From the IMG/VR virus record IMGVR_UViG_2778261360_000013, positions 1-7,797 of that record: 7,797 nt of DNA; one strand, written 5' to 3'. Shown piece after piece: positions 6,323 to 6,590 of this stretch (position 1 is the stretch's first letter; the number at the start of each line of letters is the position of its first letter). The notes under the pieces were generated by a model. It searched no databases, had not been told where the DNA came from, and was given only the letters and a program-made list of their open reading frames with translations. Position numbers and translations under genes: made by a program. This DNA comes from a virus. Its lineage: Duplodnaviria > Heunggongvirae > Uroviricota > Caudoviricetes.

Positions 6323-6590
6323 TATGTACCAGATGGAAAAAATAACAACAGGTGTGTCATACACCACGTCAGCGGTGGGGACGGGATACTGGCTACTGCA
6401 GTTGCTGGACAAAGTCTCCCCATCCCAGTGGGTGGCAATAGGCGTATTGGGTAGCGCCAGATATCGAGTGGCCGGTAATACCGACGTTATAACCTATAAA
6501 TGTCAACCTGACGGAATGTTGAAAGGATGGAGTGAGCAGCCAGACACACAAAAAACGGAGTCCGGCTCCGGTTTTTGTGTTGCCATATAA
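6323..6590 (+). pseudogene. S21/EssD-type class II holin, 3'-disrupted: only the N-terminal ~41 residues are holin-like, fused in frame to unrelated sequence
   Basis: RBS GGAG then ATG at 6323 with a second in-frame Met (MYQMEK...). MEKITTGVSYTTSAVGTGYWLLQLLDKVSPSQWVAIGVLGS aligns with the phage 21 / DLP12 holin N-terminus as I recall it. After ~6454 the frame encodes polar sequence (ARYRVAGNTDVITYKCQPDG...) in place of the second TM helix. Confidence 0.55.
6556..6582 (+). terminator. Short hairpin followed by a T-rich tract (weak intrinsic terminator candidate)
   Basis: CGGAG-TCCGG-CTCCG then GTTTTTGTGTTG, preceded by an A-run. It lies inside the non-holin tail of the disrupted holin ORF. 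Confidence 0.3.

What the first reader, a model, noticed from the sequence alone, without database searches (positions are those of the whole stretch)
6323..6590. Holin broken in the middle and no endolysin or Rz: second deletion junction at about 6455
The ORF starts like an S21-type pinholin through the first TM helix, then continues in frame into polar, unrelated sequence where the second TM helix should be. It ends next to a small terminator-like hairpin (6556..6582). No endolysin, Rz/Rz1 or structural genes follow; the next gene is an effector-like ORF. This implies a second deletion that fused the start of the lysis cassette to a distal cargo locus. The locus is therefore lysis-defective and fixed in the chromosome.
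Basis: partly seen in the sequence, partly recalled or inferred. Interest (0 to 1): 0.4.

Follow-up and report, generated by a model that had tools for sequence, protein, structure and literature searches.

The report
Truncated holin at prophage deletion junction
This is an ordinary scar of prophage decay: a roughly 25.6 kb deletion in a defective lambda-like prophage of E. coli joined the first 44 codons of a phage-21-type holin gene to the tail end of a tail-fibre-assembly gene fragment upstream of the effector gene nleG, removing the lysis and virion genes.

Summary
The ORF 6324-6590 (88 aa) matches the intact 71-aa class II (P21 S-type) holin of E. coli prophages at all 44 N-terminal residues. 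DNA homology to intact holin genes stops exactly at 6455. From 6456 the sequence is the last ~37 bp of a tail-fibre-assembly (tfa) gene remnant, then its conserved terminator hairpin (6546-6580), then nleG. The holin frame reads the tfa piece out of frame, passes the tfa stop and runs through the hairpin to TAA 6588-6590, so the 44-aa tail is not a native domain. Most of TMD2 and the charged C-terminus are lost.

A near-complete prophage at the same chromosomal site (mdtA | ibs-yegL) in strain 377323_2f carries holin-RrrD-Rz, the head and tail genes, cif, the tfa remnant and nleG-espJ. By that reference about 25.6 kb is missing. Junction microhomology is only 2-4 nt (GC or TAGC) and no IS element lies there.

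The window is 100% identical to E. coli GCA_002461335.1. Its source contig has no lysis or structural genes downstream. The same junction occurs in 3 of 5,426 complete genomes, and its exact fusion protein is indexed in 124 blocks of public assemblies. Every copy read lies at the same locus.

Ordinary prophage decay; low interest.

The parts
6324..6590 (+). Chimeric 88-aa ORF (holin N-terminus plus a 44-aa non-native tail). RefSeq annotates it as 'phage holin' or 'lysis protein'.
6324..6455 (+). 5' fragment (codons 1-44) of a class II / P21 S-type pinholin gene. It holds the dual start ATG 6324 / ATG 6333, TMD1, the loop and the first 9 residues of TMD2.
   Evidence: 100% identical to O157 and RM14723 intact holins up to 6455. 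Pfam PF04971 profile positions 1-41 of 64.
6452..6455 (.). Deletion junction. The last base shared with intact holin genes is 6455. Microhomology with the right-hand parent is GC (6454-6455) or TAGC (6452-6455), depending on the tfa allele.
   Evidence: no repeats or IS ends flank it
6454..6492 (+). 3' end of a tail-fibre-assembly (tfa) gene remnant. It reads (A)PDIEWPVIPTL* in a frame shifted +1 from the holin frame, with the tfa stop TAA at 6490-6492.
6546..6580 (.). Bidirectional intrinsic-terminator-like hairpin inherited from the tfa-nleG intergenic region. It is translated as part of the chimeric ORF.
   Evidence: conserved in tfa-effector cassettes
6685..7215 (+). nleG (T3SS effector family) whose normal ATG and first 15 codons are lost through an 11-bp deletion at 6645/6646
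7417..7797 (+). 126-aa hypothetical cargo gene (WP_001002868-like) that follows nleG in all relatives
3840..4463 (+). Intact late antiterminator Q gene, upstream of the truncated lysis cassette
   Evidence: PF03589, E 1.9e-54
1..905 (-). Integrase gene lacking its N-terminus, cut by the IS3-family element
905..2155 (+). IS3-family element marking the first rearrangement. Its orfA carries a premature stop at 1128-1130 in this strain.

Best explanation
The window is a defective lambdoid prophage fixed between mdtA and ibs-yegL in an E. coli lineage. A single illegitimate (microhomology-level) deletion of about 25.6 kb removed everything from codon 45 of the holin gene to within the short tfa remnant upstream of the nleG-espJ cargo. 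That interval held the SAR-endolysin-type lysozyme RrrD, Rz/Rz1, terminase, the head and tail genes, the tail fibres and cif. The holin reading frame now continues out of frame through the tfa 3' end, the intergenic spacer and the terminator hairpin. The product is an 88-aa chimera lacking most of TMD2 and the cytoplasmic tail. TMD2 is the pore-forming helix of S21-type pinholins, so the product cannot form pinholes, and there is no endolysin to release. With the IS3-truncated integrase as well, the element can neither lyse nor excise and is inherited vertically. Shown here: the breakpoints, the parental sequences, the frame relationship, the absence of lysis genes and the single-locus distribution. 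Inferred: the mechanism (illegitimate recombination), the in-situ order of events and the loss of function.
For: The left parent is identical to intact holins up to 6455. The right parent is a tfa 3' end plus terminator plus nleG, found in many E. coli prophages and in phage 2B8. The tfa frame is +1 relative to the holin frame, by direct reading. The pre-deletion architecture exists at the same chromosomal site in 377323_2f and D1. Breakpoints map to L009 29628 and ~4020. The right arm is collinear into ibs-yegL at 97% identity for the same-junction relative L001. The Pfam match is truncated at profile position 41 of 64, and the TMD2 hydropathy peak is lost. No lysis or structural homologs are present in the source contig. 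All 10 contexts shown for the exact protein have the same neighbours where the contig reaches them, and one further contig is cut short on the left. The junction is in 3 of 5,426 complete genomes. No phage record (0 of 351 hits) spans the junction. No other protein cluster contains the tail. Literature: TMD2 of S21 68 is necessary and sufficient for pore formation, and C-terminal truncation is tolerated only down to about K56 (bioRxiv 10.1101/2021.04.20.440580). The break here is at residue 41 in S21 68 numbering.
Against: No exact right-hand parent allele was found. The nearest tfa remnants differ at 6456-6459, so the microhomology length (2 versus 4 nt) is uncertain. The reference prophage in 377323_2f is a relative rather than the ancestor, so the 25.6 kb figure is an estimate. 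Loss of function is inferred and not assayed.
Confidence: 0.93

Rival explanations
1. The same junction arose by recombination between two different prophages, or by replacement of the right arm through exchange between tfa-terminator cassettes, rather than by a simple in-situ deletion within one prophage.
For: The tfa-3'-end plus terminator cassette is repeated in front of several effector genes, and the cif-nleG-espJ module occurs at three or more chromosomal sites: ybhB, torT and yegL. The window's tfa fragment looks like a mosaic of two alleles. The nleG patch at 6645-7400 has clearly been swapped, with ~15% divergence between flanks that are more than 99.5% identical.
Against: The left breakpoint is inside the holin gene, which has no homology to tfa, so the join itself cannot be homologous. 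The same cargo is contiguous with ibs-yegL in full-length prophages at this very site, which makes in-situ deletion the simplest history.
Confidence: 0.08
2. The chimeric ORF keeps a biological role, for example as a TMD1-only dominant-negative antiholin that delays lysis by co-resident S21-type prophages.
For: The Shine-Dalgarno-like GGAG at 6313-6316, the dual start and TMD1 are all intact. The ORF is conserved without disruption in about a hundred assemblies.
Against: Conservation is explained by recent common descent, because the flanking DNA is also nearly identical. The tail is out-of-frame and terminator sequence. Only 9 residues of TMD2 remain. In this strain the neighbouring genes are accumulating lesions, which argues against selection on the locus.
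Confidence: 0.03
3. The 88-aa protein is a native member of a holin subfamily with a long polar C-terminus.
For: RefSeq and UniRef name it 'phage holin' or 'lysis protein'.
Against: Only its own 90% cluster covers the tail. No phage record carries it. The tail DNA is homologous to a tfa 3' end and intergenic sequence read in another frame. It has no complete TMD2.
Confidence: 0.01
4. The junction is an assembly artefact.
For: None.
Against: The identical junction is present in three independent complete genomes and in many draft and metagenome assemblies.
Confidence: 0.005

Closest known systems
Phage 21 S (S21 68/71) pinholin; class II holins of E. coli lambdoid prophages (PF04971; e.g. WP_000284524.1, DLP12 EssD)
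   Same: The dual-start motif, TMD1, the loop and the first 9 residues of TMD2 are identical to the intact 71-aa prophage holin.
   Different: It lacks the last 27 residues: most of TMD2 and the charged cytoplasmic tail. A 44-aa tail of non-coding origin replaces them. No SAR-endolysin-type lysozyme (RrrD) or Rz/Rz1 follows.
Defective or cryptic lambdoid prophages of E. coli (e.g. DLP12, Rac, Qin in K-12; the many decayed Sp/SpLE elements of O157) (from general knowledge)
   Same: It is an integrated lambdoid element with a truncated integrase, an IS insertion, internal deletions, and retained Q and cargo genes.
   Different: This is a particular remnant at the mdtA | ibs-yegL site carrying nleG-espJ cargo. 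I found no specific published description in the limited search made.
Effector cargo loci downstream of tail-fibre genes in lambdoid prophages ('exchangeable effector loci', Tobe et al. 2006 PNAS; cited from memory, not retrieved)
   Same: The right side of the junction is such a locus: tfa 3' end, terminator, nleG, hyp, hyp, espJ. The same arrangement is seen in 377323_2f, D1, O145 RM9872 and phage 2B8.
   Different: Here the locus is joined directly to the start of the lysis cassette, and its nleG has lost its start codon.

Membership tests
S21-type pinholin (class II holin, PF04971) | Significant match to the family profile | tested here: met
   PF04971 E 1.2e-16, 60.8 bits against a cut-off of 26, but only profile positions 1-41 of 64 are matched
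S21-type pinholin (class II holin, PF04971) | Dual-start motif giving holin and antiholin forms | tested here: met
   ATG 6324 and ATG 6333 in frame (M-Y-Q-M), identical to intact relatives
S21-type pinholin (class II holin, PF04971) | Two transmembrane domains, with a complete TMD2 that lines the pinhole | tested here: not met
   Only W36-S44 of TMD2 remain. The hydropathy peak drops from 1.85 to 0.57 or less. TMD2 is necessary and sufficient for pores.
S21-type pinholin (class II holin, PF04971) | Charged cytoplasmic C-terminal tail | tested here: not met
   KIKEDKRKAARGE is absent and a tail of unrelated sequence replaces it
S21-type pinholin (class II holin, PF04971) | Sits in a lysis cassette with a SAR endolysin and Rz/Rz1 | tested here: not met
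   No RrrD or Rz homology in the 20.5 kb source locus. Intact relatives have both immediately downstream.
S21-type pinholin (class II holin, PF04971) | Membrane-depolarising lethal function | not testable with these tools
   Needs expression in E. coli
Defective lambdoid prophage remnant | Phage genes bounded by chromosomal genes at a site occupied by fuller prophages in other strains | tested here: met
   mdtA on the left and ibs-yegL on the right. Larger prophages occupy the same site in RM14723, 377323_2f and D1.
Defective lambdoid prophage remnant | Loss of modules essential for excision, lysis and virion formation | tested here: met
   The integrase is truncated by IS3, and there is no xis, early region, endolysin, Rz, terminase, head or tail genes
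NleG T3SS effector (neighbouring gene) | NleG/DUF1076 domain | tested here: met
   PF06416 E 1.6e-42
NleG T3SS effector (neighbouring gene) | Intact N-terminus (region that carries the secretion signal in T3SS effectors, from general knowledge) | tested here: not met
   An 11-bp deletion removes the ATG. The first 15 residues present in the full-length allele P0027 are missing.
Intrinsic terminator | GC-rich hairpin followed by a U-tract | tested here: met
   Termination activity itself was not tested.

The most novel reading that the evidence does not exclude
The deletion placed the effector cargo (nleG-hyp-hyp-espJ) only about 2 kb downstream of an intact Q antiterminator gene and the late-operon leader, with no lysis genes in between. 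Q from this remnant, or from a co-resident lambdoid prophage with the same specificity, could then drive antiterminated transcription through the tfa terminator into the effector genes during SOS induction. That would give induction-coupled effector expression without cell lysis. A second, less likely reading is that the TMD1-only peptide acts as a trans antiholin.
Probability: 0.05. Interest if true: 0.4.

Novelty: already known. Interest (0 to 1): 0.1.

Why it matters
It matters mainly for annotation. This chimeric 88-aa ORF is named 'phage holin' or 'lysis protein' in public databases, although it is a truncated fusion that should be flagged as a pseudogene. The locus is also a clean, precisely mapped example of how effector-carrying lambdoid prophages are reduced to immobile cargo islands. 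The junction could serve as a lineage marker for the small E. coli group that carries it. It does not change understanding of holins or of prophage decay.

Tried and rejected
An exact-junction 31-mer scan of the GTDB species-representative genomes and of IMG/VR viral contigs returned 0 hits each. That says little beyond showing the junction is rare and absent from viral contigs.

NCBIfam gave no family for the fusion, the intact holin, NleG or the 126-aa protein.

Rfam and tRNA scans of the window were empty.

A repeat search around the junction found no IS ends, att-like repeats or long direct repeats, so IS-mediated or site-specific deletion was rejected.

I looked for an exact right-hand parent allele extending identity to 6456. 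The best candidates were the D1 full-length tfa, with the right sequence at the junction but 76% identity overall, and tfa remnants at 88-95% that differ at 6456-6459.

A simple sigma-70 scan did not locate a convincing pR' downstream of Q, so the novel-case reading has no promoter support.

A literature search for 'exchangeable effector loci' found nothing usable.

I considered a native long-tailed holin subfamily and rejected it.

Full report
**What is in the sequence**

A second in-frame ATG lies at 6333, and the ORF listing extends the frame upstream to GTG 6279. Pfam PF04971 ('Bacteriophage P21 holin S') matches residues 5-45 only, which are profile positions 1-41 of 64 (E 1.2e-16). When the ORF is aligned with the intact 71-aa class II holin of O157:H7 and RM14723 prophages (WP_000284524.1), residues 1-44 are identical and nothing meaningful aligns afterwards.

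The identical part covers the dual start MYQM, TMD1, the connecting loop and the first nine residues of TMD2 (WVAIGVLGS). A 19-residue Kyte-Doolittle scan peaks at 1.85 over residues 36-54 of the intact protein. The fusion reaches at most 0.57 in that region. The new 44-residue tail has 10 charged residues and a mean hydropathy of -0.58.

**The junction**

Megablast against 5,426 complete E. coli genomes shows that homology to intact holin genes stops exactly at window 6455. It is 100% identical in O157:H7 up to that base. Only three complete genomes continue across the junction: 2022H047, 2022H048 and CP090611.

From 6456-6460 onward the window matches sequence annotated as 'tail fiber assembly protein (incomplete)' followed by a DUF1076/NleG gene. 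In the tfa frame the window reads (A)PDIEWPVIPTL*, with the stop at 6490-6492. That frame is shifted +1 from the holin frame. The chimeric ORF therefore reads the tfa end out of frame, passes the tfa stop, crosses the intergenic spacer, and translates the terminator hairpin itself before reaching a stop.

The hairpin has these properties:
- A core stem at 6556-6570 followed by a T-run.
- Extended 15-nt arms at 6546-6560 and 6566-6580.
- A fold of -23.6 kcal/mol, z = -5.07.
- Conservation in the same position after tfa in other prophages and in phage 2B8, where it precedes espM2.

The hairpin therefore belongs to the right-hand parent and has no native connection with the holin gene.

**Microhomology**

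The left parent reads ...GGGTAGC|C/TTGGTG. Common right parents read ...ACTGCAC(C/T)(G/T)GATATTGAG, which gives a 2-nt overlap (GC). The full-length tfa of strain D1 reads ...CCATAGCGCCAGATATCGAGTGGCCGGTAATACC. That sequence matches the window from 6452 and would give a 4-nt overlap (TAGC, 6452-6455). No IS end, att-like repeat or long direct repeat flanks the junction. The join is best explained by illegitimate recombination.

**What was lost**

Strain 377323_2f carries a near-full-length lambdoid prophage at the same chromosomal site. Its gene order is: mdtA | int-xis ... Q - hyp - DUF3927 - hyp - holin - RrrD - Rz - terminase - portal - head - tail - J - Lom - tail fibre - cif - tfa remnant (81 bp) - nleG - hyp - hyp - espJ | ibs - yegL.

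The window's left arm (3821-6455) matches this prophage at 98.9% identity and ends at L009 position 29628. The right arm resumes at about L009 position 4020. About 25.6 kb lies between these points.

Strain D1 has the same right end at the same site. RM14723 has a related prophage there with an intact lysis cassette and the same IS3-truncated integrase. The right arm of the same-junction relative 2022H047 is collinear with 377323_2f into ibs-yegL at 97% identity over 3.1 kb. An in-situ deletion is the simplest history.

**Source and downstream context**

The window is 100% identical to positions 3317-11113 of locus L022, which is from contig NJZW01000013.1 of E. coli GCA_002461335.1. Downstream of the window lie a 73-aa ORF, an EspJ-like gene, ibs, yegL, pphC, yegI, yegD and alkA.

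Queries for RrrD, Rz, terminase, portal, tail fibre, Lom and cif were run by tblastn against the 20.5 kb locus. None gave a hit better than E = 0.1.

**Distribution**

The exact 88-aa protein is indexed in 124 blocks of the public assembly collection, and 76 contigs are recorded for the exact sequence. The ten places shown have the same neighbours wherever the contig reaches them: mdtB-mdtA on the left and nleG/cargo then yegL on the right. One further contig is cut short on the left. This pattern indicates one ancestral event that is inherited vertically.

Among 5.8 billion protein clusters, only the protein's own 90% cluster covers the tail. All other hits are ordinary holins aligning to the N-terminal half. 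Several unrelated holin truncations and fusions also turned up (P0111, P0035, P0032), which shows that such scars are common.

None of the 351 phage records with a match spans the junction. They match either 6324-6455 (holin) or 6454-6600 (tfa).

**Function**

Published work on S21 68 indicates that TMD2 is necessary and sufficient for pore formation. It also indicates that C-terminal truncation is tolerated only down to about K56 (bioRxiv 10.1101/2021.04.20.440580; see also PMC7278021). The break here is at residue 41 in S21 68 numbering, so pinhole formation is not expected. This is an inference and was not assayed.

The endolysin, Rz and virion genes are gone, the integrase is truncated by an IS3-family element at window 905, and the early region is missing. 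The element therefore cannot lyse, package or excise.

**Verdict**

This is ordinary prophage decay of a well-known kind. The only practical consequence is that the ORF's database name, 'phage holin', is misleading.

The most novel reading not excluded is that the deletion couples the effector cargo to Q-dependent late transcription without lysis. I found no promoter evidence for it and rate it at about 5%.

Noticed in passing
window 6645/6646 (nleG 6685-7215): An 11-bp deletion relative to all same-junction relatives removes the normal nleG ATG and its first 15 codons. A full-length 191-aa version of this same allele exists elsewhere (P0027). NleG here probably lacks its N-terminal secretion signal and may be a pseudogene.
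   Followed up: partly
window ~6645-7400: The nleG patch is about 15% diverged from the same-junction relatives, while the flanks are more than 99.5% identical. This looks like an allele swap or gene conversion from another nleG paralog. The best match to the patch in 5,426 complete genomes is only 89%.
   Followed up: partly
window ~5194 (ORFs 4701-5219 and 5216-5458): A 1-bp deletion frameshifts the STM1630/TfpB-like membrane protein gene, which is intact (238-247 aa) in relatives.
   Followed up: yes
window 1128-1130: A C-to-T change creates a premature stop in orfA of the IS3-family element that truncates the integrase, so the IS is probably dead in this strain as well.
   Followed up: partly
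window ~3400-4300 (phosphatase 3' end and Q): About 30 substitutions relative to 2022H047 cluster here, in an otherwise near-identical left arm. This suggests a second recombination patch.
   Followed up: no
window 6258-6286: A terminator-like hairpin with a T-run lies just upstream of the holin Shine-Dalgarno sequence. This upstream region is identical in intact O157 prophages, so the deletion did not create it. Its role is unknown.
   Followed up: no
L003, L006, L007, L008, L020 (tfa remnants before cif, nleG, espM2): A short 'tfa 3' end plus terminator' cassette recurs in front of several different T3SS effector genes, at three chromosomal sites and in phage 2B8. It may act as a recombination handle for effector exchange.
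   Followed up: partly
window 7264-7288 (- strand): A strong terminator-like hairpin (9 pairs, 7 GC) lies on the minus strand between nleG and the 126-aa ORF.
   Followed up: no
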